Source: Staphylothermus marinus F1 (GTDB taxonomy: Archaea > Thermoproteota > Thermoprotei_A > Sulfolobales > Desulfurococcaceae). Taken from it: 32,000 bases of DNA. Numbering within the stretch: position 1 is the stretch's first letter; each line of letters opens with the position of its first letter. This document shows, piece by piece, positions 12,330-31,821 of this stretch. Where the stretch lies: positions 270,001 through 302,000 of the forward strand of contig NC_009033.1 of the NCBI RefSeq assembly GCF_000015945.1, written 5' to 3'. A program made the position numbers and the translations under genes. Below the pieces are notes generated by a model. It was given only the letters and a program-made list of their open reading frames with translations. It ran no database searches and was not told where the DNA came from.

Positions 12330-12716
12330 TTAGTTACCGAATAGTTCTGGGCAAATATTACATTTTAAAGGATCTATTTCTGGATCCAGCTTTTTATGTA
12401 TGTTACACATATATTTTTTCGACATAATATATAGTGTAAGCGATGTTATATCTCTGTATATTTCATAAATTGACGGGTTCTTATCTATTATTTTCTCAGC
12501 CAGTTCTTCTAATTTTCGTTCTACATCAATGTTCCTTGATAGATCTATTTGTACTCCTCTCTGCTTAGCTAGATACCGTGATACAGCTGAGGGTGTTATT
12601 CTTAATTTTCTAGCTATTTCTATCTCTGATAATCCATGTTGATACATTATCTCGACTATTCTCCTATTAATATATGGGACTATGTATCTATAAGCTAGTT
12701 CGAATATTGATTTCAA
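12330..12716 (-). CDS. Small HTH transcriptional regulator with C-terminal Cys/His cluster
   Basis: 128 aa. The HTH is GLSEIEIARKLRITPSAVSRYL. The C-terminal motif is CNIHKKLDPEIDPLKCNICP (C-x-H...C-x-x-C). Starts 4 nt after the stop of the DUF438 gene. Confidence 0.7.
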   Translation of the reverse strand: MKSIFELAYRYIVPYINRRIVEIMYQHGLSEIEIARKLRITPSAVSRYLAKQRGVQIDLSRNIDVERKLEELAEKIIDKNPSIYEIYRDITSLTLYIMSKKYMCNIHKKLDPEIDPLKCNICPELFGN

Positions 12717-12720
12717 TTCT

Positions 12721-14043
12721 TTATAGCACCACTATTTTCTTCTTGATCTCGTCTGGATTATTAATTATATCAGTTAGATCTTCTACTATTTCAACTGTTC
12801 CTAGTTGTTTACCATCCTTATTATTGACTGGAACAATTAGTACTCTTATTATTCTATTACCTAATCTTGTCCAGAATTCTCTATATGGTTTATCTCCTCT
12901 CTTCAATTGTTCGACCACTAGCTTTACATATCTCTCCAATCTTGGAGGATGACAATAATATAATAGTCTACCAACTATTGTTTTTGTTCTAATAAATCCC
13001 TTATGGAATATGCTACTACTATAGAATCTTATTCTATCATCCGTATTAGCATATGTAATCTCTAATGGAAGTGCTCTAAATAATCCTTCTATCTCTTCTC
13101 TGTTAAGAAACCCTGTATCTAATTCTATGTCGTTCTCTTTCCTAATCTGATATTTATCTGGTTTGAATTGTCCAATCATCTTTCTAACATGTATAGGTAT
13201 CTTATCATATTTTTCAGGAGGTATTGTACCATCGATCTCGAATGGATATATAGGTTTAGCGCTTGGTTTCCAGTTTTTATTTGTTTCAACAATATATCCG
13301 ATCTCTTCTCCGATCTCATGAATAACGGTCCATTCACCCTCGCTGAATAACTCCCATATGGTGGGGAATAATATTTTGTTTTCTCTGAAAACTATATCTG
13401 CAATTTCCTTGGAAAGCCATGTTGTATCATCAACTATTTTCTTTACATTGGCTTCACTAATGGTTTCTTTTTCGAGAAGCTTTTCAACATATTCTATCAT
13501 TTCTCTAATCTTCTTTATTACACCATCTTCTTTACTCCATAATACTCTTGGTATTGCCTCTAATCCTCTCCGCTCTAGATATGGGAAGATTAGCATCTGG
13601 ATTTTCCTATAGTGAACCCTGATCTTCTTGAGATCATATAGTATATTTATTAATTCACTCAGTATTTTTCTTCTAACATCGTTGTTTGTTGCTCTAGCAA
13701 GTGATCCTGTATATATACCTAAAAGTTCAGCTTGCTTCAAGATGTAATTGTTTTCTTTCAATAAATTATCTAGTGGATGCCCTTCTGGTATGTCTTTTAA
13801 CTCTTTTCCTCTCAGATAATCCATGAATAGGTTGAGATGAAGATCGCAGAGTTTTATTATATCGTTTACACTAAATCCCTCGAGGACGAGTTGTTGTTCT
13901 AGTAGGGGTATTTCTAATGGGGAGACTTCTCGAAGCAAGTTGCCGAATTCTATTTTTATTCTTTCGACGTCTTCTCCGCTTTTTATCTTTTTAAGGATTT
14001 CTTTTAATAATTCGAGTTTTTGTGCTTTATCAATATTTGACAT
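12721..14043 (-). CDS. DUF438 / hemerythrin-like / PAS-type sensor-like protein (COG2461-like)
   Basis: 440 aa. The N-terminal LLKEILKKIKSGEDVERIKIEFGNLLREVSPLEI...L...EG is DUF438-like. The middle has HP...L.KEN and HYRK...LFPYLERRG...P..V.W segments that parallel hemerythrin HHE helices. The C-terminal ITYANTDDRIRFYS...CHPPRLERYV...PVNNKDGKQLGTVEIVEDLT is PAS-like. AGGTGTGA SD upstream. Confidence 0.68.
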   Translation of the reverse strand: MSNIDKAQKLELLKEILKKIKSGEDVERIKIEFGNLLREVSPLEIPLLEQQLVLEGFSVNDIIKLCDLHLNLFMDYLRGKELKDIPEGHPLDNLLKENNYILKQAELLGIYTGSLARATNNDVRRKILSELINILYDLKKIRVHYRKIQMLIFPYLERRGLEAIPRVLWSKEDGVIKKIREMIEYVEKLLEKETISEANVKKIVDDTTWLSKEIADIVFRENKILFPTIWELFSEGEWTVIHEIGEEIGYIVETNKNWKPSAKPIYPFEIDGTIPPEKYDKIPIHVRKMIGQFKPDKYQIRKENDIELDTGFLNREEIEGLFRALPLEITYANTDDRIRFYSSSIFHKGFIRTKTIVGRLLYYCHPPRLERYVKLVVEQLKRGDKPYREFWTRLGNRIIRVLIVPVNNKDGKQLGTVEIVEDLTDIINNPDEIKKKIVVL

Positions 14044-14128: not shown

Positions 14129-16075
14129 CTAGTATATTGTATTAAGACCTGGCATCTCTTTCCATGCACTATGTAGTAGTTTTACATAGTATTCTACACT
14201 ATATTTTTGATCAACATCTATAAAGGGTTCAGGTTCTCCACTAGGAGATACTATGTAGACTATGGGTCCAGTATATTTTCTAATCATTGATAATGCTTTC
14301 AACCATGGTGTTTTATTTTTGGATCTTTTCCTAGTATTAACAATTATGCCTAACTTCCAAGATTCTACTTCTCTATTGATAAGTTTTTGTTCAGCTGATT
14401 GGAAAATCTTGTGAGCTTCTCTTAGTTTTTCTTTGAATTCCTCTGGTTTCTTAGCTTCTCCCAGCTTGTTTATTGCTTCTAATTGTGTTTCTCTAATAAA
14501 TATTGGAGTATTTTTCCTAACACACATTACTCCCTTGATCTTCATTTCACCACTAACTAGTCTCCCATAATACCTATTAGATGCTCCAAGCCCTGTATTC
14601 TTTGTTTTCGGAATATATAGCCATGTATATTCAGCCTCGATCTTTGCAGGCATACCTGTTTCTTCAACTATTCTCAATGCTTTCTCGCAATCTCCTCCTT
14701 GAACAAATAAGCTGTCTATTATTATATGTATTACTTTATATCCTCTATTCTCAAGCAACCTATGTGCTTCTCTCAATATTCTGCGAGCATACCATGTAAC
14801 TGTTTCATGAGCCATTATTGAGCCGAACAAGCTGTTTTTAAAGCCTAGGTAGCCGAATCCTGAGACAAGTATCCATTTCAGAGCTTTGCTTCTAAGACTA
14901 TATATTTCATTATTTGTCTGTGCTACAAGCATTTTTGCTTTCTCACGTAGCTTTACTAGTTTGTTAAGAACAATTGATACAAGCCCTCTACGATCAAGAC
15001 ATATTATGTGAGGTAGATTCTTCACTACATGTTTTTTCCTACAATATGGATTATCAATTGTTTCGCCACTAATATTGTATTTAGCAATGATGCTTGGATA
15101 AAGACTATTATAGTCTATTTGACAAACACCCCAATATAGGCCGGGTCTAGGCGAGTAAACTAGTCCTCCACGATCGGTTTCTAGTAAGCTTCGAAGACTT
15201 CTCCAAGACTCTCTACGTCCAAAACCATTTATTATAAGGTATTTATGTTTCCTAGCTTCTAATGCTTCTATAGTAGTTAATATTCTGCCTATAGTTGCGT
15301 AATTAAGCATTCTAGGAGGAGTATATGCTAGTCTGCTCCAATACACTATACCTGTATGATCAACAAGTGTTTCCACATCATCTATCCATACATCATAGTA
15401 TTTCCTGATCCAAGAATATCTTTGCTCAACATATATTTTTTCTACAATACTAGTATAAAGTATTAATGGTTTATATTCACGAACAACTTCAACAGCTCCA
15501 TCCAAGTCACCCTCATAAACTATGCCCTCACTGTTCTCTATAACAGCTTTCTCAGGATCTATTGTTTCAGAATATAATCTATACCCGTCTCTAAATAAGC
15601 GTAGTATTAAATACTTAATCGGAGGCTCAGAATATTCTGGATCAAAAGGATTCTCTAAAGCAACATAGCCTTCTCCACGTTTCTTCAGAGGAGTCAATAC
15701 AGGGATCTTGTTTCTCCATAAAGCCTCAATTAATGGTTCAGGATAAGTATTAACAGGGACAGCGATGGCTTTACGTATAACCCAATTATTAACAATATCT
15801 ATTATGCGGGGATCCAGTGTTTCATAAACAATAACTTCTGTCTCAGACGCGTAATATGGTGGTTTATACCAGTTCTCAACCCATACGTTTTCAACACCAT
15901 TTATTAACTCAACATTTTCAGCTAAAACATCTGGATCGATACGTGGCATAAGGTATCCGCGGTATAGAAGACTTGTTGATACTACATATACTTTTCCATC
16001 CTGATCTAATAGTTTAAACAAGGTGTGTTTACCGGTGGGGGCAGCGTCGAAAAGGTAGAGAACAGTGTTGTTCAA
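14129..16075 (-). CDS. Family-B DNA polymerase, divergent PolB2/Dpo2-like form (no recognisable 3'-5' exonuclease motifs, degenerate motifs B and C)
   Basis: 648 aa. Motif A is intact: QIDYNSLYPSII (nt about 15121-15086). Motif B is KWILVSGFGYLG versus the consensus KxxxNSxYG (Asn->Val, Tyr->Phe). Motif C is KVIHIIIDSLF versus the consensus YxDTDS (first Asp->Ile, second Asp kept). The KxY region is KIKGVMCVRKNTPIFIRETQ. TTG start overlaps the stop of the upstream 74-aa gene (TTGA). Confidence 0.85.
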   Translation of the reverse strand: MNNTVLYLFDAAPTGKHTLFKLLDQDGKVYVVSTSLLYRGYLMPRIDPDVLAENVELINGVENVWVENWYKPPYYASETEVIVYETLDPRIIDIVNNWVIRKAIAVPVNTYPEPLIEALWRNKIPVLTPLKKRGEGYVALENPFDPEYSEPPIKYLILRLFRDGYRLYSETIDPEKAVIENSEGIVYEGDLDGAVEVVREYKPLILYTSIVEKIYVEQRYSWIRKYYDVWIDDVETLVDHTGIVYWSRLAYTPPRMLNYATIGRILTTIEALEARKHKYLIINGFGRRESWRSLRSLLETDRGGLVYSPRPGLYWGVCQIDYNSLYPSIIAKYNISGETIDNPYCRKKHVVKNLPHIICLDRRGLVSIVLNKLVKLREKAKMLVAQTNNEIYSLRSKALKWILVSGFGYLGFKNSLFGSIMAHETVTWYARRILREAHRLLENRGYKVIHIIIDSLFVQGGDCEKALRIVEETGMPAKIEAEYTWLYIPKTKNTGLGASNRYYGRLVSGEMKIKGVMCVRKNTPIFIRETQLEAINKLGEAKKPEEFKEKLREAHKIFQSAEQKLINREVESWKLGIIVNTRKRSKNKTPWLKALSMIRKYTGPIVYIVSPSGEPEPFIDVDQKYSVEYYVKLLHSAWKEMPGLNTIY

Positions 16076-16296
16076 GAAACATCCTCTCTTAAGAATCTAC
16101 GTAGTATGTGGAAATATATGATCTCTAATGGATCATTTACGGGTATATCGCTGTATATACTTATGGTATCCTCAATGTCTTCAAGTATTTCTTCCCACCT
16201 AGCTTCCTCATCCTTTGGAAGCCTAGCTATTATTTTACGGAATCTTTCCAGCTCCCTTAGGAGAGCCATTCTATAAGAGACCGTTGTTCTACCCAT
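16072..16296 (-). CDS. Hypothetical 74-aa (or 65-aa) acidic helical protein, translationally coupled between the RadA-like and PolB genes
   Basis: The ORF MGRTTVSYRMALLRELERFRKIIARLPKDEEARWEEILEDIEDT... overlaps the RadA-like gene by 40 nt (13 nt if it starts at ATG 16269) and the PolB start by 4 nt. I recognise no family. Confidence 0.5.
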   Translation of the reverse strand: MGRTTVSYRMALLRELERFRKIIARLPKDEEARWEEILEDIEDTISIYSDIPVNDPLEIIYFHILRRFLREDVS

Positions 16297-16928
16297 ACAT
16301 TTCCACCCCTGATCTTATCAATAGGAATACTTGTACGCAACCCCTCTGATAGACGGGGATGTTTAACAACAATAAGATAACCCCACTTCCTATCCTTAAC
16401 ATCTAATCGGAGAACAATATCTGCTGTATGATGATGGAAAAAACCGCCCATAGGCCTATAATAACCATCCCTGCCAACCTCGTTAAACAATATAATACGA
16501 TAACCGAGATTTTTCAACCTATGAATTAAACCAGTAATTCTGCTCATATCACGATAACCTATTAAGCCATTCCTGACAAAGGAGTAGGGAGTATAGATCA
16601 AAATGGATGCTTTCTCTGAAGAATTATTCTCTAAAAAATCCTCGAGAACTGTTTCAACATCTCCCATGCGAAAACAACGGGCAATGAAAACATTATCGGG
16701 ATCACCTCTACGCATACGGATAAGTCTGAGAAGAAAATATGGGTCTAGACCGCCGAATTCCCGTACCAGAACAACATAGACTCTCCCATAAACACTAGAA
16801 ACACTTATGACATGGTGAAATAAAAGCTCTAACAAACTATTATCACTACTGTAAAACTCGTAGACACCATTCCATGGGATTCCATTGAAAAACCTATCAA
16901 TGAACCAGAAACCAGTGATTTTAACCAT
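16257..16928 (-). CDS. RadA/RadB (RecA-superfamily) paralog lacking Walker A and Walker B motifs (predicted pseudo-ATPase)
   Basis: From ATG 16928, preceded by GGGTGA SD: MVKITGFWFIDRFFNGIPWNGVYEFYSSDNSLLE... This is collinear with the RadB pattern TG...LD.LLGGG...G..T.VYG..GSGKT, but the P-loop is replaced by YSSDNSLL. The Walker B hhhhD is replaced by ILIYTPYS. The C-terminal IVLRLDVKDRKWGYLIVVKHPRLSEG parallels the RadB ILRLD...R.A.L.RHR..PEG. The track ORF adds 14 residues upstream. Confidence 0.68.
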   Translation of the reverse strand: MVKITGFWFIDRFFNGIPWNGVYEFYSSDNSLLELLFHHVISVSSVYGRVYVVLVREFGGLDPYFLLRLIRMRRGDPDNVFIARCFRMGDVETVLEDFLENNSSEKASILIYTPYSFVRNGLIGYRDMSRITGLIHRLKNLGYRIILFNEVGRDGYYRPMGGFFHHHTADIVLRLDVKDRKWGYLIVVKHPRLSEGLRTSIPIDKIRGGNVWVEQRSLIEWLS

Positions 16929-17112
16929 AAAAGCTTCACCCAGAGAATAAATAAAACAATATAAAACCAAGAGACGTAACCGAAAATATTATAGAAACAT
17001 AGTTGTATCAATAAAGACATTATATTTAATTATTAATTAGAGAAAATATTTCCGAAACATATTTAGAAATATTAAAATTACTGTTAATGCGGTTCTTTAA
17101 CAATAACTATTC

Positions 17113-17910
17113 TTAAGGCTTTACTGGTAAAGTATAGGATTGTATTAGTGTTCGTGTATAGGGATGTTTTGGATTCTCTATTATTTCTTGAAATGATGCT
17201 TCTTCTACTATTTCTCCCTTATACAGTATTATTGCTTTCTCCGCGAGATACTGGGCTACAGGTATATCATGTGTTACAGTGATCATTGTTGGTTTTAGTT
17301 TTTCATAGATTTCATTGAGTATATTTATTATTTGTGCCTGAATAGATACATCCAACGCTGATGTTGGCTCATCTAGTATTAGTATTTCTGGTTTATGCAC
17401 TAATGCTCTCGCTATTAGTACTCTTTGCATCATACCCCCGCTAAGCTGATCCGGGTAGTAATCTAAAACAGCTCTGTGGAGATGAACATGTTTCAAGCTC
17501 TCAAATACACGTTTCTCTGCTTCCTCCCCATCTATACCCAGTGCTTCTAATGGTTCATAGAGAATCCTTCTCACCTTAAGCCTTGGATTCAATGATCTAC
17601 TAGGATCTTGTGGCACATAACCTATTTTCTTAGCTAATAATCTTTTTTCACGTCTCTTCAAACTATACGGAGTATATCCGAGAACTCTTACCTCTCCATG
17701 TCTAGGCTTGATTAAGCCGAGCATTATTTTTATTAAAGTAGTTTTTCCAGCTCCACTTTCACCTATAATTGCAACTTTTTCTCCACGATAAATTGTTAAG
17801 TTAATATTTCTTAGTACAGGAGTGAATTTTTTGAATAATGACCTAAATCCTTTCGCAACATAGTATCCAGCCACAAGATCCTTGATTTCCACAACAGGTT
17901 CACTACTCAC
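17113..17910 (-). CDS. Peptide/nickel ABC transporter ATP-binding protein (DppF/OppF-like)
   Basis: Walker A GESGAGKT, signature LSGGMMQR, Walker B ILILDEP. Overlaps the upstream ATPase gene by 4 nt. Confidence 0.9.
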   Translation of the reverse strand: MSSEPVVEIKDLVAGYYVAKGFRSLFKKFTPVLRNINLTIYRGEKVAIIGESGAGKTTLIKIMLGLIKPRHGEVRVLGYTPYSLKRREKRLLAKKIGYVPQDPSRSLNPRLKVRRILYEPLEALGIDGEEAEKRVFESLKHVHLHRAVLDYYPDQLSGGMMQRVLIARALVHKPEILILDEPTSALDVSIQAQIINILNEIYEKLKPTMITVTHDIPVAQYLAEKAIILYKGEIVEEASFQEIIENPKHPYTRTLIQSYTLPVKP

Positions 17911-18887
17911 TTTTCCCCGCCCTCCACATTATATAGCCAGCAAGCAACACGATGACCATTGATCTCTATAATCTCGGGTTCTTTTTCTCTACAAATATCC
18001 ATAGCCTTTGGACATCTTTTACTGAACTGGCAACCTTTGATATATTCTCCGGGCCTAGGTGGTTCGCCTAGATAGGAGACTAGTTTTTTCTTAACACCTA
18101 GAATAGGGACGGCGTCGAACAACATTTTAGTGTAGGGATGCAGAGGGTTTTCGATAATTTCTCTAGTACTTGTTTCCTCAACTATTTTTCCAGCATACAT
18201 TACCGCTACTCGATCACATATTCGAGTAGCTGATAATATATCATGTGTTATCATTATAATTGTTAAGCCTAACTCGTTTTTCAGTCTCAGAAGAAGCTTT
18301 AATAATTGAAGCCTCAAATTAGCATCTAGCGCCGATGTTGGTTCGTCCGCAACAACTATTTTAGCACCAGTTGCCAGTGCTAAAGCAATAGCTGTTCTCT
18401 GCTGCATTCCACCACTTAGTTCGTGAGGATAACTGTCAAGTACTTGTTCAGGGTCTAATCCAACTATACCTAGTAGTTCTCTAGCTTTCTTCAACGAGTT
18501 CTCTTTATTTAATTCATATAGGCTGTTGAAAACATAGTAGAATTGCTCACTTATTGTTAGGTATGGATTCAAAGCTTTGCCTGGATTCTGAGGTATAAGT
18601 GTTACTAGTTTACCTCTTATTTCTTCATAGTGTTTCTCGTCTTCTACTATAACTTCTCTATTAAAGACTCTAAGCCTCCCCTTCGTAACCGAGTATGGTG
18701 GGAGTATTCCAACTATTGCGTTTCCAAGTGTTGACTTACCGCATCCACTCTCGCCTACGAGACAATATATTTCTCTCTCCAATACCTCGATGCTTATTCC
18801 TCGAACAGCCCATAAAATATTCTCTTCTTCATCCATATAGCCAATCCATAAATTCTCTGCTTTAACAGCTAAAACCATAATCTCCAC
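17907..18887 (-). CDS. Peptide/nickel ABC transporter ATP-binding protein (DppD/OppD-like)
   Basis: Walker A GESGCGKS, signature LSGGMQQR, Walker B VVADEP. The C-terminal Cys-containing oligopeptide-ABC extension (CQFSKRCP...C) is present. Confidence 0.9.
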   Translation of the reverse strand: MEIMVLAVKAENLWIGYMDEEENILWAVRGISIEVLEREIYCLVGESGCGKSTLGNAIVGILPPYSVTKGRLRVFNREVIVEDEKHYEEIRGKLVTLIPQNPGKALNPYLTISEQFYYVFNSLYELNKENSLKKARELLGIVGLDPEQVLDSYPHELSGGMQQRTAIALALATGAKIVVADEPTSALDANLRLQLLKLLLRLKNELGLTIIMITHDILSATRICDRVAVMYAGKIVEETSTREIIENPLHPYTKMLFDAVPILGVKKKLVSYLGEPPRPGEYIKGCQFSKRCPKAMDICREKEPEIIEINGHRVACWLYNVEGGEK

Positions 18888-19777
18888 CTACGCCTCATCC
18901 TAGGATCTAATTCTTCTCTAAGATTATCTCCTAACAAACTGAATCCTAAAGCTACCAATAATATGAAGAATCCTGGTATGAGGCTTATCCATGGATAACT
19001 ATAGATATAATTGAAACCATTCTGTACAAGAACTCCCCAATCAGGATAGTCTGGTGGCAGTCCTAGTCCTAGGAAATTTATAGCTGCTGCCTCCAATAAT
19101 ACGCTTCCAGTATCAGTTATTGCTTGGACAATAACGGGGGTTAGAGTGTTTGGTAGGATGTGGCGGTAAATTATTTTATAACCTGGTAAACCAGCTAGTT
19201 CAGCTAATGTAACAAATTCCATCCCTCTTACTCCTCTAGCATGGACATATGCTATTCTAGCATACCACGACCACCATGTAATTATTAGACTGGTTATTAC
19301 TACGAATAATCCTCTCCCGCCAAGCGTGTTGAGAGCTAAAGCAATTATTATTGCTGGAAAAGCCATAAATAATTCTGTGAAATAATTCAGTATCCTCTCT
19401 ATTAAACCACGATAATAAGCTGCGAAAACACCGATGACTAATCCTATAGCTAGACTAACAACTACAACAATGGTTATTTGAAACAATGCGTATCCAGCGC
19501 CGATAAGTATACGGGACAACAGGTCTCTGCCAATGAGATCTGTTCCGAACAAGTGTTTCAAACTAGGAGGCTGAGGCCCCCTCATCTGTGTTTCAGGGCC
19601 TGCAATACCCCAGCCTTCCTCTGGATAAGGAGCTATGAAAGGTCCTAGAATAGCTATTAATACTGTGAAAACCACTATTACAACCCCAATCCTAAACCCT
19701 GCTCTACGTTTCCATGCTCTCTTAACAAGTGTTTTTAGCTCGGCAACTCTCTCCGATCGTTTTATTCTATTCATCAT
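18869..19777 (-). CDS. Peptide ABC transporter permease (DppC/OppC-like)
   Basis: 302 aa, multi-TM. The BPD-transporter EAA-like loop is (L/V)ELAGLPGYKIIYRHILPN. Confidence 0.9.
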   Translation of the reverse strand: MMNRIKRSERVAELKTLVKRAWKRRAGFRIGVVIVVFTVLIAILGPFIAPYPEEGWGIAGPETQMRGPQPPSLKHLFGTDLIGRDLLSRILIGAGYALFQITIVVVVSLAIGLVIGVFAAYYRGLIERILNYFTELFMAFPAIIIALALNTLGGRGLFVVITSLIITWWSWYARIAYVHARGVRGMEFVTLAELAGLPGYKIIYRHILPNTLTPVIVQAITDTGSVLLEAAAINFLGLGLPPDYPDWGVLVQNGFNYIYSYPWISLIPGFFILLVALGFSLLGDNLREELDPRMRRRWRLWF

Positions 19778-20802
19778 AGTTTCACCCTTGGATCAATTAT
19801 TGCTTGTAATATGTCCGCTAACGTATTCATTATGATATAGAATATTGTTACAGTAACCATGAGCCCGGTGATCAATGTATAGTCGCTTTTACCGATCACA
19901 CTATAAGCAATACTGCCTAAGCCTTCACGTCCAAAAACAACTTCAACAATCATCGCATCAACTAAGCTGTAAGCAAAAGCAAGACCCATTATTTGGGTAA
20001 GACTCGGTATAGCTCCTCTAAAAGCATATTTCCATATAATAATTCTTCTCTCAACCCCCCAAGCAACAGCCGCACGAACATATTCCTCATTAAGGTTCTC
20101 AGCTACTAATGCCCTGGATATTCTAAGCCCTAACCCTATAGGATATGTTGCAACCACTATTGCTGGAGGCAGTATTCTTAGAAAAACATCTATAAAGACA
20201 GGCAGGTTACCCTCAATTAAAGCATCTAATAAGTAAAAACCCGTTATTGGATGAAAACCTGTCTGAAACATGAGATATGTATCTATTCTACCATAGCCTG
20301 TAAACCCTATTGTCTCAGCCAGCAATATTATTAAGCCTATTCCCAACCAGAAACTAGGAGCGTTAGCAAGCAGTATTGCTAGAGACTGCATTATGCTATC
20401 AAATCTAGAGCCCCGGCGCAGAGCTGATTCTACACCTAGAAAAACACCTATACTTATACCTATAATATAAGATACTACTAGTAATTCAAGAGTGGCTGTT
20501 AATCCTCTCCAAATAACTTCTGCGACTGGAACTCTATATACTATGGATACACCCATGTTTCCGCTGAGAACTTGTAGAGTATACCTTAATACCTGTATGG
20601 GTAAGGGCTGATCTAGTCCTAGCTCCTCCCGTGCTTTCTGAATAGCTAACCCAGCTTTTTCGCCACGCGGATTTCCCGCCCATATCTTAGCGGGGTCTCC
20701 CGGCGCAGATATGATTATTATATATGATAACATTATAACTCCAATAATTATTAGTGCCGACCAAAAAACTCTTTTAACTAAATAGTTGAGGCTGACAGGC
20801 AA
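19774..20802 (-). CDS. Peptide ABC transporter permease (DppB/OppB-like)
   Basis: 342 aa. Begins with the typical YLVKR(V/L) N-terminus, has 6 TM helices, and an EEYVRAAVAWGV EAA loop. Confidence 0.9.
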   Translation of the reverse strand: MPVSLNYLVKRVFWSALIIIGVIMLSYIIIISAPGDPAKIWAGNPRGEKAGLAIQKAREELGLDQPLPIQVLRYTLQVLSGNMGVSIVYRVPVAEVIWRGLTATLELLVVSYIIGISIGVFLGVESALRRGSRFDSIMQSLAILLANAPSFWLGIGLIILLAETIGFTGYGRIDTYLMFQTGFHPITGFYLLDALIEGNLPVFIDVFLRILPPAIVVATYPIGLGLRISRALVAENLNEEYVRAAVAWGVERRIIIWKYAFRGAIPSLTQIMGLAFAYSLVDAMIVEVVFGREGLGSIAYSVIGKSDYTLITGLMVTVTIFYIIMNTLADILQAIIDPRVKL

Positions 20803-20807
20803 TTCTG

Positions 20808-22445
20808 CTAACCTTTAACTTCAACATATTGGAAAAAGACCACAAACATATATAGCGGATTCAACGCCTTATCCTCTAATACAACCCTATCACTATATAC
20901 GTATGGCTGTATTTCATCCCATAGATTAATAGCGGGGACATCACGGTAAATTATGTCTTGTGCTTGAACATATAGTTTCATAGCTTTATCATAATCTACA
21001 CCTTCAAGTTTCCAAGCATTATCTATTAGTTCCTCGAATTCATTATTCTCATAACCCGCCCAGTTCCACTCCTTTACATCGCTGTGTAATAGATTATATA
21101 GGAAATCATAGGGTGAGGGAATCGTTGGCCACCAATCATTTATCATGAGATGAGGAACACTATTAGGATCCTCCCAGACCTTAGGCCCTGTCTCAGCCAT
21201 AGTATCCCATGGCTTAGCAAGAATATCCACATCTATCCCTAGATCTTTTAGTTCGCCCTTCAAGATCTCTGCAAATGCTACTTCTTGTTCATAGCTTCCC
21301 TCAACCATTATCTCTATTTTAAGGTTCTTACCGAGAAGCCCTGCTTTTCTGAGGAGTTCTCGTGCTAGTGTCTTATTATATGTATATGTATAGTTGTCAA
21401 GATGGCCGGGGAAGTGGTGTGGTATTATTCCACTTCCTGGAACCCCGAAGCCTTTCAGAGCTCTCGTAACTATTCTATCCCATGGTATTGAGTGCGCTAT
21501 AGCTAATCTAAATTCTGTAATGTTTGTTGGGTATCTTCTAGTATTGAACATTAATACATAGTTGTGATATGTTGTTTCATTTCTTACATGGTATCCTTGC
21601 TTCATAAGGTTATGGATCTCTCCTAGTGGAACTTGTGTGGCTATATCTATTGCACCACTCTTTAAACCATTTAGTTGAGCAGTACTATCCGTCACGATCT
21701 TTATTACTACAATGTCTGGAGCGTATGGATTATTAATTATTTTCCATCCCCACCAATCTTTGAACTTCTCCAATCTAACTTCAGATTCTGGATCATAATA
21801 TGTGATCTTATATGGCCCGCTACCATCCTCATGCCCTTTATCAAACCATTCCCTGAGCGAGGGATCTAGCGGATCATTTACTCCAGCATATTCTAGGACC
21901 TTAGGACTATAAATGTATGCACCATAACTAGCAGCCGCTATTAAGTCCAGTCTCATTGGTCTATCGAGGATGAATTGTACAGTATAATTATCGACGACTT
22001 TGATCTCTTTCACACCCTCCCATATATACCCTGGTCCCTCCCCTTCTTCAACATATGCTTTGAGTGCCCGCTCAATACTAAACTTTACAGCTTGAGCAGT
22101 AACAGGTGTTCCATCGTGAAACTTAGCATCTCTTCTCAAATGAAAAGTCCAAATAGTATGGTTATCGTTTGCCTCCCAAGACTCAGCAAGCGCAGGCATG
22201 AACTCGTTTTTCTCGGGATCATAGTATAATAGAGGCTCATATACTGTTCCAAGCACAACTAATCCTGTATCAAATTCTAGGGAGGGATCGATCCCCGTTA
22301 TGGAGTCTTCGTATGCATACACCACTACCCTTAGCTTCTGCGTGGGTTTCTCTGTCCAGAAATTATAATTATATAGATAATAAGCTGTTAGACCTACGGC
22401 AATAATCACTACTAATATAATCCCAATCAGTAATTTTCTATTCAT
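20808..22445 (-). CDS. ABC transporter substrate-binding protein, family 5 (peptide/oligosaccharide-binding), N-terminally membrane anchored
   Basis: 545 aa. N-terminal TM anchor MNRKLLIGIILVVIIAVGL. SBP_bac_5-like stretches (PLLYYDP...PALAESWE, KFHDGTP.TA.AVKFS). First gene of the 5-gene operon. GGGGTGAG SD upstream. Confidence 0.87.
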   Translation of the reverse strand: MNRKLLIGIILVVIIAVGLTAYYLYNYNFWTEKPTQKLRVVVYAYEDSITGIDPSLEFDTGLVVLGTVYEPLLYYDPEKNEFMPALAESWEANDNHTIWTFHLRRDAKFHDGTPVTAQAVKFSIERALKAYVEEGEGPGYIWEGVKEIKVVDNYTVQFILDRPMRLDLIAAASYGAYIYSPKVLEYAGVNDPLDPSLREWFDKGHEDGSGPYKITYYDPESEVRLEKFKDWWGWKIINNPYAPDIVVIKIVTDSTAQLNGLKSGAIDIATQVPLGEIHNLMKQGYHVRNETTYHNYVLMFNTRRYPTNITEFRLAIAHSIPWDRIVTRALKGFGVPGSGIIPHHFPGHLDNYTYTYNKTLARELLRKAGLLGKNLKIEIMVEGSYEQEVAFAEILKGELKDLGIDVDILAKPWDTMAETGPKVWEDPNSVPHLMINDWWPTIPSPYDFLYNLLHSDVKEWNWAGYENNEFEELIDNAWKLEGVDYDKAMKLYVQAQDIIYRDVPAINLWDEIQPYVYSDRVVLEDKALNPLYMFVVFFQYVEVKG

Positions 22446-30409: not shown

Positions 30410-31060
30410 TTATGTTAAAATATGGATCCTTCTCGCTTTTATAGTTAGGATCAGGCTATACAATAAGAAAAAGAGAGCTATCAACGATAAAGATAATTCT
30501 ACAAAAACCGTTTGAACCCAAATATTACTTAGTATGCTCACTATATCTAATACCGCGATATATGAATCAAACAATATCGCATATAATGGAAGTATTAATG
30601 CTAAGTAGAAATATGTTTTATTATATACTTTACCTATATGTCTTGTTATTAAAGCAGAGATAATTAATAATACTAATGAGAACGTAAACAAGGGGTTATA
30701 TGGTAATGTAATGGGTAATGTAAATATGAAGCCTATTATTAAATGAAGTGTTGATCTATTAATTTTTGAAGCATCACTTGTTAAAAACGTAATATAAATT
30801 AATATGTCATCTATTAAATCATCGATTACTTGTTTGTTATCTTGTCCAGCAATGTTCTTAATTGTCTCCTTAATTTTAACTGTTTTCGAATATAGTTCTC
30901 TAAGCTTATTCTTATCATTTTCAACAAGAATACTAAATGATTTCTCGGCGTACTTTATAATCCTATCTATTCTCTCCGCATGTTTAATCAATTGTTTTTT
31001 CTTAGCTACTTTAGACGACTCCTCTAGTTTCTCTATCGCTTTATGAAGTATCTCTGACAT
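30410..31060 (-). CDS. Hypothetical membrane protein: ~100-aa charged helical N-domain plus ~4 TM helices (paralog-like to the upstream gene)
   Basis: 216 aa. The N-terminus, MSEILHKAIEKLEESSKVAKKK...IKETIKNI, is K/E/I-rich. The C-terminal half is hydrophobic. GAGGT lies 13 nt upstream of the ATG. I recognise no family. Confidence 0.6.
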   Translation of the reverse strand: MSEILHKAIEKLEESSKVAKKKQLIKHAERIDRIIKYAEKSFSILVENDKNKLRELYSKTVKIKETIKNIAGQDNKQVIDDLIDDILIYITFLTSDASKINRSTLHLIIGFIFTLPITLPYNPLFTFSLVLLIISALITRHIGKVYNKTYFYLALILPLYAILFDSYIAVLDIVSILSNIWVQTVFVELSLSLIALFFLLYSLILTIKARRIHILT

Positions 31061-31101: not shown

Positions 31102-31821
31102 TTAGATAAATGCATCTAGAGACTTGTATAGTGTAAGGAAGGATTTAAGACTGAGTATTAGGCCTATAGTTCCAAGCCCTCCTATGACTATTACTATAAT
31201 ATATGCTATTAGTGGTGATATGTTGAGTGCGTTTACTATTCTATATATTTCTCCGTTGTCCATGAAGGCGTATAGCATGTAAAGCATTGCTTGAAAACAT
31301 ATAAACAATGATATAGGTATTAAGGCGGATGAAATAATTAATCCCAGTTTTCTCCTCGCTCGGTAAGCATGTATTGATATAAGCAATGGGAATAAGAGGA
31401 AGCCGATAAATAATATGCTGAATCCAAAAAATATAGGTAGTAGAATCAATGTTATTGTGAAAGCTGTAATGAATTCTCTATAAGCCTTCCTCACCTTATC
31501 TATTTCCCCTGTGAAGTCATAGTATGATGCTGCTATATATTTTCTCAGTTTTTTAATTTCCTCTAATAAGAGGTGAGGATTTTTTCTAATATTAAAAATG
31601 TTTTTGTTAATCTCATCTGTCTTCTCATATATTTTAGAAGCTAGATCTGGATAGTCATATTTTTTCTTCCTAATAATATCATTGATAATATTAATCGACT
31701 CATCTATTAACGCATATGTTTTCTCGAGATTTGGAATTGGTGAAAAAATATTGTTTATTTTTGATTTCATCTTTTTAAGCATGTTTATTGTGTCTCTGAG
31801 GATTTCATCGGTTTTAGCCAC
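31102..31821 (-). CDS. Hypothetical membrane protein: ~110-aa charged helical N-domain plus ~4-5 TM helices
   Basis: 239 aa with the same architecture as the 216-aa neighbour. GTG start overlaps the stop of a 38-aa upstream ORF (GTGGCTAA). Confidence 0.6.
   Translation of the reverse strand: MAKTDEILRDTINMLKKMKSKINNIFSPIPNLEKTYALIDESINIINDIIRKKKYDYPDLASKIYEKTDEINKNIFNIRKNPHLLLEEIKKLRKYIAASYYDFTGEIDKVRKAYREFITAFTITLILLPIFFGFSILFIGFLLFPLLISIHAYRARRKLGLIISSALIPISLFICFQAMLYMLYAFMDNGEIYRIVNALNISPLIAYIIVIVIGGLGTIGLILSLKSFLTLYKSLDAFI

What the first reader, a model, noticed from the sequence alone, without database searches (positions are those of the whole stretch)
14129..16970. Overlapping three-gene operon: Walker-less RadA/RadB-like protein, 74-aa acidic protein and a degenerate PolB, a possible archaeal mutasome-like module
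Seen in sequence: three minus-strand genes are chained by overlaps. The RadA-like stop lies inside the small ORF (13 or 40 nt), and the small ORF's stop overlaps the PolB TTG start (TTGA). The first protein is collinear with RadB/RadA-paralog cores from end to end, but the P-loop position reads EFYSSDNSLLE (no GxxGxGK[TS]) and the Walker B position reads ILIYTPYS (no acidic residue). The polymerase keeps motif A (DYNSLYPS) and the second Asp of motif C (IIIDS). It has lost the first motif C Asp and the motif B Asn and Tyr, and I could not find Exo I-III motifs. Established knowledge: archaea carry a clade of apparently inactivated PolBs (PolB2). Sulfolobus Dpo2 of that type is DNA-damage inducible and implicated in lesion bypass. 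Saccharolobus PolB1 needs small accessory subunits (PBP1/PBP2). Bacteria have the imuA(RecA-like, degenerate)-imuB-dnaE2 mutagenesis cassette. Inference: this trio could be a dedicated damage-tolerance complex in which a pseudo-RecA and a small adaptor load or regulate a specialised PolB. I am not aware that this linkage has been described.
Basis: partly seen in the sequence, partly recalled or inferred. Interest (0 to 1): 0.72.

Follow-up and report, generated by a model that had tools for sequence, protein, structure and literature searches.

The report
Known archaeal PolB2–PPB2–iRadA polymerase operon
The three overlapping genes are real and correctly read, but they are the Staphylothermus marinus copy of an operon described since 2013-2014 (damage-tolerance polymerase PolB2, small partner PPB2, inactivated RadA), so the finding is a correct rediscovery, not something new.

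Summary
Three minus-strand genes are chained by overlaps: a 223-aa Walker-less RadA/Rad51-fold protein (16928..16257), a 74-aa helical protein (16296..16072) and a 648-aa family-B polymerase (16075..14129). The polymerase has an intact motif A, lacks the first Asp of motif C and the Asn/Tyr of motif B, and has no exonuclease motifs. The window comes from Staphylothermus marinus F1; the 74-aa protein is Smar_0268. The novelty claim fails. This linkage, PolB2 + arCOG07300 (now PPB2) + inactivated RadA (iRadA), was published by Makarova & Koonin 2013 and Makarova et al. 2014. Timinskas et al. 2025 modelled it as a heteropentameric "PolB2 mutasome". The 2014 supplementary alignment lists this exact 74-aa protein. 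All published hallmarks tested here are present: the PPB2 N-terminal MGRT arm with Arg3 and Arg9, the PolB2 D-R-GG motif, IID in place of DTD, and a C-terminal PIP-like tail on iRadA. Among 81 loci, PPB2 is next to the polymerase in 73, and 50 have the co-oriented iRadA-PPB2-PolB2 order. Two small additions are a Sulfolobales-type damage-response promoter element upstream, and a 40-nt overlap that encodes the iRadA PIP-like tail and the PPB2 arm in two frames.

The parts
16257..16928 (-). iRadA: inactivated RadA/Rad51-core protein, 223 aa (GenBank ABN69382). The mechanical ORF extends to TTG 16970 (237 aa).
   Evidence: 100% match to the S. marinus F1 protein. The family profile hits RadA at E about 1e-13 and Rad51 at about 1e-9. 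AF2 model pLDDT 92; Foldseek TM 0.7-0.78 to RAD51, RadA, DMC1 and RAD51 paralogs. No P-loop, and Thr at the Walker-B-equivalent position. ATG 16928 is supported by upstream conservation.
16263..16286 (-). Codons for the iRadA C-terminal PIP-like motif QRSLIEWL (putative PCNA-binding tail)
   Evidence: A C-terminal Qxx[LIMV]xx[FWYHL][FWYLIM] motif occurs in 20 of 32 family members, consensus QxxLxEWL. PMC11791011 reports PCNA-binding motifs in many iRadA C-termini. Binding is not tested here.
16072..16296 (-). PPB2 (arCOG07300), 74 aa, Smar_0268. N-terminal arm MGRTTVSYR with Arg3 and Arg9.
   Evidence: A PPB2 HMM built without this sequence matches residues 1-67 at E=2e-20, the only hit in the window. 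N-terminal pattern over 73 loci: M-G-[RK]-T-[VT]-P-[ST]-[YF]-R. This exact sequence is in Suppl. Fig. S1 of PMC4104785. Accession ABN69381.
16257..16296 (-). 40-nt iRadA/PPB2 overlap, dual-coding the iRadA tail (VWVEQRSLIEWLS*) and the PPB2 arm (MGRTTVSYRMALL)
   Evidence: Sequence reading. Nearly invariant in L081, L083 and the distant L001. Other lineages have little or no overlap.
14129..16075 (-). PolB2 (Dpo2-type family-B DNA polymerase), 648 aa, TTG start inside TTGA (GenBank ABN69380)
   Evidence: PF00136 E=8e-25 with no exonuclease-domain hit. Full-length 100% match to the annotated protein. Motifs DRGG, DYNSLYPS, KWILVSGFG and HIIIDS are shared with PPB2-linked PolBs, not with PolB1 or Pol II. 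AF2 pLDDT 90.5; Foldseek TMq about 0.7 to archaeal PolBs.
15161..15244 (-). Codons for PolB2 residues ~278-305: the loop with a short helix and D301-R302. PMC11791011 models the homologous S. islandicus loop as docking onto iRadA (beta-alpha motif) and the PPB2 arm (D-K/R).
   Evidence: D301 is invariant across 18 homologs. It is the only internal segment of lowered confidence, pLDDT 73-78 at residues 281-310. The docking role comes and is not tested here.
16971..16990 (-). DDRE-like promoter element AATATTTTCGGTTACGTCTC (contains ATTTTC, an ANTTTC match)
   Evidence: 16 of 20 matches to the S. islandicus DDRE consensus in PMC6061795. The core ATANTTTCRGW occurs only here in the window. Conserved in L081 and L083. 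Similar elements lie upstream of the operon in L002, L003, L018 and L030. Function is inferred.
16959..16966 (-). TATA-box-like TTTTATAT, 31-38 nt upstream of ATG 16928
   Evidence: Invariant in three genomes. Assignment is by position and archaeal promoter knowledge (inference).
16936..16940 (-). GGTGA Shine-Dalgarno-like sequence, 8-12 nt upstream of ATG 16928
   Evidence: Invariant in three genomes. Inference.
17042..17064 (-). Distal copy of a 23-nt direct repeat (proximal copy 16982-17004, which overlaps the DDRE-like element)
   Evidence: the repeat finder: 2 copies, 83% identity, 60-nt spacing. ATGTTTCNNNAATATTTTC has 2 matches against 0.17 expected. The distal copy is only weakly conserved.

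Best explanation
This is the Staphylothermus marinus F1 copy of the known iRadA-PPB2-PolB2 operon; the 74-aa gene is Smar_0268.

Shown here: the three proteins belong to these three families and carry their published sequence hallmarks, and the three-gene arrangement is widely conserved.

Inferred from work on Sulfolobus/Saccharolobus and from published structure models:
- The genes are transcribed together from a promoter upstream of iRadA and translated in a coupled way through the 40-nt and 4-nt overlaps.
- PolB2 is an active polymerase without proofreading that extends primer ends opposite lesions or mismatches.
- PolB2 works in a complex of 1 PolB2 : 1 iRadA : 3 PPB2. A loop before motif A (residues ~278-302, ending in D301-R302) docks onto iRadA as one RadA subunit docks onto the next in a filament. 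The MGRT arm of one PPB2 subunit inserts between PolB2, iRadA and the DNA.
- In this organism the QRSLIEWL tail of iRadA, not the polymerase, tethers the complex to PCNA.
- Expression is probably switched on by DNA damage through an Orc1-2-type regulator bound to the ANTTTC-containing element upstream of the TATA box.
For: Identity.
- 100% matches to S. marinus F1 proteins ABN69380, ABN69381 and ABN69382.
- This PPB2 sequence is printed in the arCOG07300 alignment of PMC4104785.
- A Staphylothermus sp. operon of type 1a (iRadA-PPB2-PolB2) is among the complexes modelled in PMC11791011.

Family hallmarks.
- PPB2: MGRT arm with R3 and R9; HMM built without the window sequence gives E=2e-20.
- PolB2: D-R-GG, IID, KW.LV..FGY, no exonuclease motifs.
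- iRadA: RadA/Rad51 core fold, no N-terminal domain, no P-loop, C-terminal PIP-like tail; no such motif on the PolB2 C-terminus.

Synteny.
- 594 or more genome stretches encode relatives of this polymerase.
- Among 81 loci, 50 have the co-oriented iRadA-PPB2-PolB2 order and 73 have PPB2 next to the polymerase, across archaea and bacteria.

Mechanism, from the literature.
- Dpo2 is active, lacks exonuclease activity and extends lesion-opposed or mismatched ends (PMC8764526).
- Dpo2 is damage-inducible and solely responsible for targeted mutagenesis (PMC7390963).
- Its induction depends on Orc1-2, which binds ANTTTC (PMC6061795).
- Heteropentamer models (PMC11791011).

Promoter.
Against: - No experiment has been done on S. 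marinus.
- In the literature I could search, no physical complex of PolB2, PPB2 and iRadA has been shown in any organism. The assembly rests on AlphaFold models and gene linkage.
- Purified S. islandicus Dpo2 alone is active (abstract of PMC8764526; discussed), so the partners are not needed for catalysis in vitro.
- I could not run a multimer prediction.
- The DDRE match is a short AT-rich element, and no orc1/cdc6 gene lies in the window.
- Bootstrap support for my NJ tree is only 53-60%, so clade placement rests mainly on shared derived motifs and gene context.
- The S. marinus iRadA has lost even the Walker-B-equivalent Asp that 22 of 32 relatives keep. The meaning of that is unknown.
Confidence: 0.88

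Rival explanations
1. A previously undescribed three-gene damage-tolerance module.
For: GenBank annotates the two partners only as 'hypothetical', and UniRef names the RadA-like protein only as 'KaiC-like domain-containing'.
Against: The linkage is described in PMC4104785 and PMC11791011. This exact PPB2 protein is in the 2014 supplementary alignment. A Staphylothermus sp. operon is in the 2025 modelling set.
Confidence: 0.01
2. The trio acts in replication control or restart rather than lesion bypass, for example alternative origin-independent initiation or handling of stalled forks, with PolB2 mainly as a scaffold. This is the alternative raised by Makarova et al. 2014.
For: PMC4104785 notes linkage to arORC2 genes in many euryarchaea and suggests roles in stalled-fork processing or regulation of replication. 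The RadA-like subunit and the PCNA tail would fit fork-associated work.
Against: S. islandicus genetics and biochemistry show an active polymerase responsible for damage-induced mutagenesis. The Orc1 paralog linked to the operon in Sulfolobales is the damage-response regulator Orc1-2, not an initiator. The catalytic motif A Asp and the second motif C Asp are invariant in the family. No orc gene is in this window.
Confidence: 0.07
3. The three genes are co-transcribed but do not form one complex. PolB2 acts alone as the bypass polymerase, while iRadA and PPB2 have a separate job such as recombination mediation, like other RadA paralogs.
For: [quoted passage not shown] No co-purification data were found. 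Some loci have the polymerase without a detectable iRadA.
Against: PPB2 is adjacent in 73 of 81 loci, including bacteria. Published fusions of iRadA-PPB2 and PPB2-PolB2, and 40 high-confidence pentamer models. The D-[KR]-GG motif is present in 24 of the 25 PolB2-signature polymerases compared and absent from PolB1 and Pol II. Overlapping reading frames here suggest coupled synthesis.
Confidence: 0.1
4. The S. marinus polymerase is a dead enzyme (the pre-2020 view of PolB2), so the locus encodes a non-catalytic structural or regulatory complex.
For: Loss of the first motif C Asp, of the motif B Asn and Tyr, and of all exonuclease motifs. PolB2 was predicted inactive by Rogozin 2008 and Makarova 2014, as cited.
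Against: S. islandicus and S. solfataricus Dpo2 carry the same substitutions (401-IID-403) and are robust polymerases. Motif A Asp321 and motif C Asp454 are invariant across 18 diverse homologs. The AF2 model has a complete palm-fingers-thumb architecture.
Confidence: 0.05

Closest known systems
PolB2 (Dpo2) operon of Sulfolobus/Saccharolobus islandicus: PPB2 (F0NED5), PolB2 (F0NED6), iRadA (F0NED7), with SiRe_0614 and SiRe_0615 coding for Dpo2; predicted 'PolB2 mutasome' (PMC11791011, PMC6061795, PMC7390963, PMC8764526)
   Same: The same three protein families. IID in place of DTD, D-[KR] before motif A, no exonuclease site, MGRT arm on PPB2, Walker-less RadA core without the N-terminal domain, and an ANTTTC-type element in the promoter region.
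   Different: In the Sulfolobaceae locus I could inspect (Stygiolobus, L014), iRadA is divergently oriented; here all three genes are co-oriented and overlap. PPB2 Arg9 is present here but is Thr in S. islandicus. The S. marinus iRadA also lacks the Walker-B-equivalent Asp and carries a PIP-like tail. No experimental data exist for S. marinus.
E. coli Pol V mutasome (UmuD'2-UmuC-RecA-ATP)
   Same: Same architectural logic, as argued in PMC11791011: a lesion-bypass polymerase bound to a RecA/Rad51-family subunit through a filament-type oligomerisation motif, a small oligomeric subunit inserting an N-terminal arm near the active site, clamp binding and damage induction.
   Different: The polymerase is Y-family, not B-family. 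RecA is active and ATP-bound, not a dead paralog. UmuD' is a dimer unrelated to the PPB2 trimer. The clamp motif is on UmuC. This is analogy, not homology of the assembly.
Bacterial ImuA-ImuB-DnaE2 mutagenesis cassette
   Same: A degenerate RecA-like protein is encoded together with an adaptor and an error-prone polymerase, under damage control.
   Different: The polymerase is C-family (DnaE2), and ImuB is a dead Y-family polymerase rather than a small helical trimer. The parts are not homologous except at the RecA-superfamily level. Not tested here.
Eukaryotic Pol zeta (Rev3-Rev7(2)-Pol31-Pol32)
   Same: A B-family polymerase with an inactivated exonuclease, an extender role in lesion bypass, a multisubunit (pentameric) assembly and damage-related use (comparison made in PMC11791011).
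   Different: The accessory subunits are unrelated (HORMA protein and Pol delta subunits), and there is no Rad51-like subunit.
Saccharolobus PolB1-PBP1-PBP2 replicative holoenzyme
   Same: An archaeal family-B polymerase with small accessory subunits.
   Different: PolB1 is the replicative, proofreading enzyme. The window's polymerase lacks the PolB1 signatures and separates from PolB1 in motif and tree comparisons. I made no comparison with PBP1 or PBP2 sequences, so their relation to PPB2 and iRadA is untested here.

Membership tests
PolB2 (Dpo2-type) group of family-B DNA polymerases | Family-B polymerase domain with motif A intact | tested here: met
   PF00136 E=8e-25. DYNSLYPS, with D321, S324, Y326 and P327 invariant in 18 homologs.
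PolB2 (Dpo2-type) group of family-B DNA polymerases | First Asp of motif C (DxD) replaced in most members, second Asp kept (S. islandicus 401-IID-403) | tested here: met
   HIIIDS against YGDTDS. D454 is invariant. The same H..[IV]D pattern occurs in all PPB2-linked PolBs compared and not in PolB1 or Pol II.
PolB2 (Dpo2-type) group of family-B DNA polymerases | Proofreading exonuclease active site missing and the domain decayed | tested here: met
   No PF03104 hit. At the aligned Exo I position (DIE in 5mdn) the family profile has no DxE, and about 100 exonuclease-domain residues of 5mdn have no counterpart.
PolB2 (Dpo2-type) group of family-B DNA polymerases | Conserved D(K/R) motif in the loop before motif A | tested here: met
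   ETD301-R302-GG. D301 and G304 are invariant. D-[KR]-GG is present in 24 of the 25 PolB2-signature polymerases compared and absent from PolB1 and Pol II.
PolB2 (Dpo2-type) group of family-B DNA polymerases | Phylogenetic placement in the PolB2 clade rather than PolB1 or PolB3 | tested here: inconclusive
   The NJ tree puts it with the Aeropyrum, Thermogladius, Sulfolobales and Stygiolobus PPB2-linked PolBs, away from PolB1 and Pol II, but bootstraps are only 53-60% and no labelled PolB3 sequences were available. The NCBIfam score pattern equals that of the Sulfolobales orthologs, with no model cutoff passed.
PolB2 (Dpo2-type) group of family-B DNA polymerases | Polymerase activity without proofreading; extension from lesion-opposed or mismatched termini | not testable with these tools
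   Known only for S. islandicus and S. solfataricus Dpo2 (PMC8764526).
PPB2 / arCOG07300 | Small protein (about 75-100 aa) encoded next to PolB2 | tested here: met
   74 aa, with its stop overlapping the PolB2 start. PPB2 is adjacent to PolB2 in 73 of 81 loci.
PPB2 / arCOG07300 | Conserved N-terminal arm 'MGRT' with Arg3 and usually Arg9 | tested here: met
   MGRTTVSYR. Family pattern M-G-[RK]-T-[VT]-P-[ST]-[YF]-R from 73 loci. Feature as defined.
PPB2 / arCOG07300 | Sequence-profile membership | tested here: met
   HMM built without the window sequence: E=2e-20 over residues 1-67, the only hit in the window. This sequence is listed in the arCOG07300 alignment of PMC4104785.
PPB2 / arCOG07300 | Three-helix fold forming a homotrimer | not tested
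iRadA (inactivated RadA of PolB2 operons; arCOG07763, arCOG04294, arCOG08101) | RadA/Rad51 ATPase-core fold without the N-terminal helical domain | tested here: met
   Profile against PDB: RadA about 1e-13, Rad51 about 1e-9. Profile position 5 aligns to residue 113 of full-length P. furiosus Rad51/RadA (1pzn). AF2 pLDDT 92; TM 0.7-0.78 to RAD51, RadA and DMC1 cores.
iRadA (inactivated RadA of PolB2 operons; arCOG07763, arCOG04294, arCOG08101) | ATP-binding and hydrolysis residues replaced | tested here: met
   SSDNSLLE at the GxxGxGKT position. No GK[ST] in the protein. Thr at the Walker-B-equivalent Asp.
iRadA (inactivated RadA of PolB2 operons; arCOG07763, arCOG04294, arCOG08101) | Encoded in the PolB2 operon | tested here: met
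   Overlaps PPB2 by 40 nt. iRadA-like genes are present in about 60 of 81 loci.
iRadA (inactivated RadA of PolB2 operons; arCOG07763, arCOG04294, arCOG08101) | C-terminal clamp-binding (PIP-like) motif, present in a subset; usually on iRadA or PolB2 but not both | tested here: met
   QRSLIEWLS at the C-terminus; 20 of 32 relatives have one; none on the PolB2 C-terminus. PCNA binding itself is not testable here.
iRadA (inactivated RadA of PolB2 operons; arCOG07763, arCOG04294, arCOG08101) | Binds the PolB2 beta-alpha loop in the manner of RadA-RadA filament contacts | not testable with these tools
   Needs a multimer model or an experiment. The only indirect sign is lowered pLDDT for PolB2 residues 281-310 in the monomer model.
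RadB (TIGR02237) | Passes the RadB equivalog model | tested here: not met
   15.2 bits against a cutoff of 172.4. The profile hits RadB at only E=3e-3, against about 1e-13 for RadA.
KaiC-like ATPase (UniRef's name for the protein) | Pfam KaiC domain hit | tested here: not met
   No KaiC family hit at E<=1 in Pfam. The nearest solved relatives are RadA and Rad51.
ImuA-ImuB-DnaE2 cassette | C-family DnaE2 polymerase and a Y-family-like ImuB | tested here: not met
   The polymerase is family B. The small protein hits no Y-family polymerase family. Functional analogy only.

The most novel reading that the evidence does not exclude
Two modest additions are not excluded.

(a) The Staphylothermus operon promoter carries a Sulfolobales-type DNA-damage response element: AATATTTTCGGTTACGTCTC, 16 of 20 matches to the S. 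islandicus Orc1-2 box. Similar elements lie upstream of the operon in other Desulfurococcales and related crenarchaeal lineages. This would extend the Orc1-2 damage regulon beyond Sulfolobales.

(b) In the Staphylothermus lineage, the iRadA PCNA-binding tail and the PPB2 MGRT arm are encoded by the same 40 nucleotides in two reading frames. That couples the evolution and the translation of the two motifs that the published model treats as key contacts.
Probability: 0.4. Interest if true: 0.3.

Novelty: already known. Interest (0 to 1): 0.12.

Why it matters
It adds little as a discovery. The operon, its distribution, the inactivation of the RadA paralog and the 'mutasome' analogy are all in print, and this very locus is catalogued. 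It does show that the first-stage reader can recover a real and biologically interesting system from raw sequence, with accurate motif calls. The open question is experimental and not specific to this window: nobody appears to have shown physically that PolB2, PPB2 and iRadA assemble, or what the dead recombinase contributes. A hyperthermophile such as S. marinus, with a compact co-oriented operon and a PIP-like tail on iRadA, could be a convenient source of stable proteins for that work. The promoter element gives a testable handle on damage regulation outside Sulfolobales.

Tried and rejected
- **Sigma-70 promoter and terminator scan.** Counts equal the shuffled expectation, and the scan does not apply to an archaeon. 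Discarded.
- **NCBIfam classification of the polymerase.** No model cutoff is passed by the window protein or by the Sulfolobales orthologs. It is useful only as a relative score pattern.
- **First bootstrap test.** It gave 0/60 because my target clade wrongly excluded exo+ proteins (P0085, P0106-P0109) that carry the PolB2 motif signature. Redone, with only moderate support.
- **Search of the 2014 supplement for the neighbouring GI numbers and for Figure S2.** Nothing found in the held text, so I cannot say whether the S. marinus iRadA is in their RadA alignment.
- **Hypothesis that the iRadA PIP-like tail is only a by-product of overlapping the conserved PPB2 arm.** Rejected. Lineages with little or no overlap also have PIP-like tails, e.g. 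RRTLLEWL in L007 and QTTLDEF in Methanomassiliicoccales.
- **TTG 16970 as the iRadA start.** Rejected in favour of ATG 16928.
- **Published co-occurring genes (orc1/cdc6, SRAP, DUF72) in the window.** None found.
- **tRNA and Rfam scans of the window.** Empty.

Full report
**What is in the sequence**

The region holds three minus-strand ORFs exactly as described. Reading the DNA gives these junctions:
- The RadA-like gene ends at TAA 16259-16257.
- The 74-aa ORF begins at ATG 16296, a 40-nt overlap. An internal Met codon at 16269 would give 13 nt.
- The 74-aa ORF ends at TGA 16074-16072, which overlaps the polymerase TTG 16075-16073 as TTGA.

The window is from Staphylothermus marinus F1. The three products are 100% identical to ABN69382 (223 aa), ABN69381 (Smar_0268, 74 aa) and ABN69380 (648 aa).

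One correction concerns the RadA-like start. The ORF runs back to TTG 16970, but the gene almost certainly starts at ATG 16928. That ATG, a GGTGA 8-12 nt before it and a TTTTATAT box are invariant in three related genomes. The TTG reads CTG in one of them.

**The polymerase**

- It hits PF00136 at E=8e-25, with no exonuclease-domain hit.
- Its close relatives are all about 630-690 aa and also lack PF03104.
- Alignment of the family profile to a solved archaeal PolB (5mdn), plus a motif table, gives:
  - motif A intact (DYNSLYPS);
  - motif B K...N..YG reads KWILVSGFG (Asn to Val, Tyr to Phe);
  - motif C YGDTDS reads HIIIDS;
  - at the aligned Exo I position (DIE in 5mdn) the profile has no DxE, and about 100 exonuclease-domain residues have no counterpart.
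- The AF2 model is confident (pLDDT 90.5) and superposes on archaeal PolBs at TMq about 0.7.

**The RadA-like protein**

- Pfam finds nothing, and the RadB model scores only 15 bits.
- An exhaustive HMMER search found 37 relatives at 50% clustering.
- A profile of 32 of them hits RadA at about 1e-13, Rad51 at about 1e-9, RadB at 3e-3 and RecA at about 0.1.
- The AF2 model (pLDDT 92) matches RAD51, RadA, DMC1 and RAD51-paralog cores at TM 0.7-0.78.
- The protein has no N-terminal helical domain.
- At the P-loop position it reads SSDNSLLE, and GK[ST] occurs nowhere.
- On the strand equivalent to Walker B it reads ILIYT. Asp is kept in that column in 22 of 32 relatives but is Thr here.
- The C-terminus, QRSLIEWLS, is a PIP-like motif. 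A motif of this kind (consensus QxxLxEWL) is present in 20 of 32 relatives.

**The small protein**

It has no Pfam or NCBIfam family. I collected small ORFs next to related polymerases in 80 genomes, built an HMM without the window's sequence and searched the window. The 74-aa ORF matches from residue 1 to 67 at E=2e-20 and is the only hit in the whole six-frame translation. The family N-terminus is M-G-[RK]-T-[VT]-P-[ST]-[YF]-R; the window reads MGRTTVSYR.

**It is already known**

- Makarova, Krupovic and Koonin 2014 (PMC4104785) describe PolB2, the small helical arCOG07300 protein and inactivated RadA-family proteins (arCOG07763, arCOG04294, arCOG08101) as one predicted operon. They find it across archaea and in several bacteria, and credit the first observation to Makarova and Koonin 2013.
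- Their Supplementary Figure S1 prints '126465180 Staphylothermus_marinus_F1 MGRTTVSYRMALLRELERFR...', which is this protein.
- Timinskas, Timinskas and Venclovas 2025 (PMC11791011) rename the parts PPB2 and iRadA. They model a PolB2:iRadA:PPB2(3) heteropentamer for 40 operons and call it a mutasome by analogy with Pol V. Their table includes a Staphylothermus sp. operon of type '1a (iRadA-PPB2-PolB2)'.

Every sequence hallmark they list that I could test is present here:
- the MGRT arm with Arg3 and Arg9;
- the D-(K/R) motif before motif A (ETD301-R302-GG, with D301 invariant);
- IID as in S. islandicus 401-IID-403;
- a decayed exonuclease domain;
- iRadA without the N-terminal domain or ATPase residues;
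- a clamp-binding-like tail on iRadA and none on PolB2.

**Synteny**

A scan of one genome per species found at least 594 stretches encoding relatives of this polymerase. In the 80 loci kept plus the window:
- 50 have the co-oriented iRadA-PPB2-PolB2 order;
- 73 have PPB2 adjacent to the polymerase;
- about 60 have a detectable iRadA.

Many of the exceptions have the polymerase right at a contig end. The set includes Desulfurococcales, Sulfolobales, Bathyarchaeia, Methanomassiliicoccales, Halobacteriota, Nitrososphaerales and bacterial phyla such as Nitrospirae, Sumerlaeota, Chloroflexi and Bacteroidetes.

**Clade placement**

In an NJ tree, the window's polymerase groups with the PPB2-linked polymerases of Aeropyrum, Thermogladius, a Sulfolobales MAG and Stygiolobus. 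It lies apart from proteins that pass the PolB1 and Pol II NCBIfam models. Bootstraps are modest at 53-60%.

The stronger argument is three derived signatures: D-[KR]-GG, KW.LV..FGY and H..[IV]D. The second and third are shared by every PPB2-linked polymerase compared; D-[KR]-GG is in 24 of 25 (the exception is Aeropyrum, whose gene context I did not check). None is found in PolB1 or Pol II.

**How it most likely works**

Shown here: family membership of the three proteins and conservation of the gene trio.

Inferred from Sulfolobus/Saccharolobus experiments:
- PolB2 is an active polymerase without proofreading that extends primer ends opposite lesions or mismatches (PMC8764526).
- It is damage-inducible and is the source of damage-induced mutations (PMC7390963).
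- Its induction depends on Orc1-2, which binds ANTTTC elements (PMC6061795).

Inferred from published models:
- The loop before motif A docks on iRadA like a RadA filament contact.
- One PPB2 arm inserts at the PolB2-iRadA-DNA junction.
- iRadA or PolB2 carries the clamp-binding motif.

In the S. marinus monomer model, the only weak internal segment of PolB2 is residues 281-310, which is that loop. The overlaps suggest coupled translation of the three subunits. I found no experimental demonstration of the complex.

**Two small things that may be new**

1. *Promoter element.* About 75 nt upstream of ATG 16928 is nearly invariant in S. marinus, S. hellenicus and a relative whose iRadA is 78% identical. 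It contains AATATTTTCGGTTACGTCTC (16990..16971).
   - This matches the S. islandicus damage-response consensus AATAGTTTCRGWDTACTCWS at 16 of 20 positions. One mismatch is at the free N of ANTTTC (and my comparison).
   - The core ATANTTTCRGW occurs once in the 32-kb window, here, with 0.69 expected anywhere.
   - Thermogladius has TAGTTTCGGAG and a second AGTTTC at the same relative position.
   - Over the loci, ANTTTCRGW is about 7-fold denser in the operon's promoter windows than in the background: 0.45 against 0.067 per kb, with hits in L002, L003, L018 and L030.
   - This suggests damage control of the operon in Desulfurococcales, but it rests on a short AT-rich motif and four hits.

2. 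*Dual-coded overlap.* The 40-nt iRadA/PPB2 overlap encodes the iRadA PIP-like tail and the PPB2 MGRT arm in two frames. It is conserved even in a distant Desulfurococcales MAG. Other lineages have PIP-like tails without the overlap, so the tail is not an artefact of the overlap.

**Verdict**

This is the S. marinus member of the published iRadA-PPB2-PolB2 operon. Interest is low.

Noticed in passing
window 16971-16990 (minus strand); also 16982-17004 and 17042-17064; L003, L002, L018, L030, L081, L083: A DDRE-like element, AATATTTTCGGTTACGTCTC, lies just upstream of the TATA-like box of the operon. It matches the S. islandicus Orc1-2 box at 16 of 20 positions. Its core ATANTTTCRGW is unique in the window, conserved in close relatives, and echoed upstream of the operon in other crenarchaeal loci. 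It sits in the proximal copy of a 23-nt direct repeat with 60-nt spacing.
   Followed up: partly
window 16257-16296 (minus strand); L081 4133-4172; L083 4133-4172; L001 ~131-170: The 40-nt iRadA/PPB2 overlap encodes the iRadA PIP-like tail (WVEQRSLIEWLS*) and the PPB2 MGRT arm (MGRTTVSYRMALL) in two frames. PPB2's ATG-G forces iRadA's Trp, and the Thr codon ACA plus the next base gives iRadA's Gln. It is conserved in the Staphylothermus group and in one distant Desulfurococcales MAG, and absent in most other lineages.
   Followed up: partly
window 16928 vs 16970: The mechanical ORF for iRadA starts at TTG 16970 (237 aa, a version also present in MetaClust). Conservation supports ATG 16928 (223 aa, GenBank). 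The TTG lies immediately upstream of the predicted TATA box.
   Followed up: yes
L081 4133-4357 and 4480-6300 (S. hellenicus): The S. hellenicus PPB2 is annotated in NCBI as 65 aa (Shell_0543) and lacks the MGRT arm; it is also truncated in the 2014 alignment. The DNA encodes the full 74-aa form. Its PolB2 is called 606 aa in one assembly, although the TTGA-overlap start is available. These are probably mis-called starts.
   Followed up: partly
window 17113-22445 versus L081: A five-gene Opp/Dpp-type ABC transporter cluster lies between the operon and the ARMT1-like, aminotransferase and carbamoyltransferase genes in S. marinus; the same transporter is also upstream of the operon in L083. It is absent in S. 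hellenicus, where the ARMT1-like gene abuts the operon. This is an insertion or deletion difference between sister species.
   Followed up: no
iRadA residue 112 (window codon 16595-16593) and alignment A2: The Walker-B-equivalent Asp is kept in 22 of 32 iRadA relatives, although all lack a P-loop at the canonical position. The Staphylothermus branch has lost it as well (Thr, His, Tyr or Phe). One relative matches GxxxxGK[ST] somewhere in its sequence; I did not check where.
   Followed up: no
proteins P0085 and P0106-P0109 (not in the window): These polymerases of about 720-820 aa have a Pfam-detectable exonuclease domain, yet carry the full PolB2 signature (DRGG, KW.LV..FGY, H..VD) and nest inside the PolB2 group. 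They may correspond to the less decayed PolB2 forms mentioned in the 2025 paper.
   Followed up: no
window 12721-14043 (minus strand): A DUF438-hemerythrin-PAS_10 protein lies immediately downstream of PolB2 on the same strand, with an 85-nt gap. The same neighbour is present in L083. There is no evidence that it belongs to the operon.
   Followed up: no
window 12330-12716, 30410-31060, 31102-31821 (all minus strand): Three ORFs of 128-239 aa have no Pfam hit at E<=1e-5. The 128-aa one looks, by eye, like a helix-turn-helix protein with a C-terminal CxxC pair.
   Followed up: no
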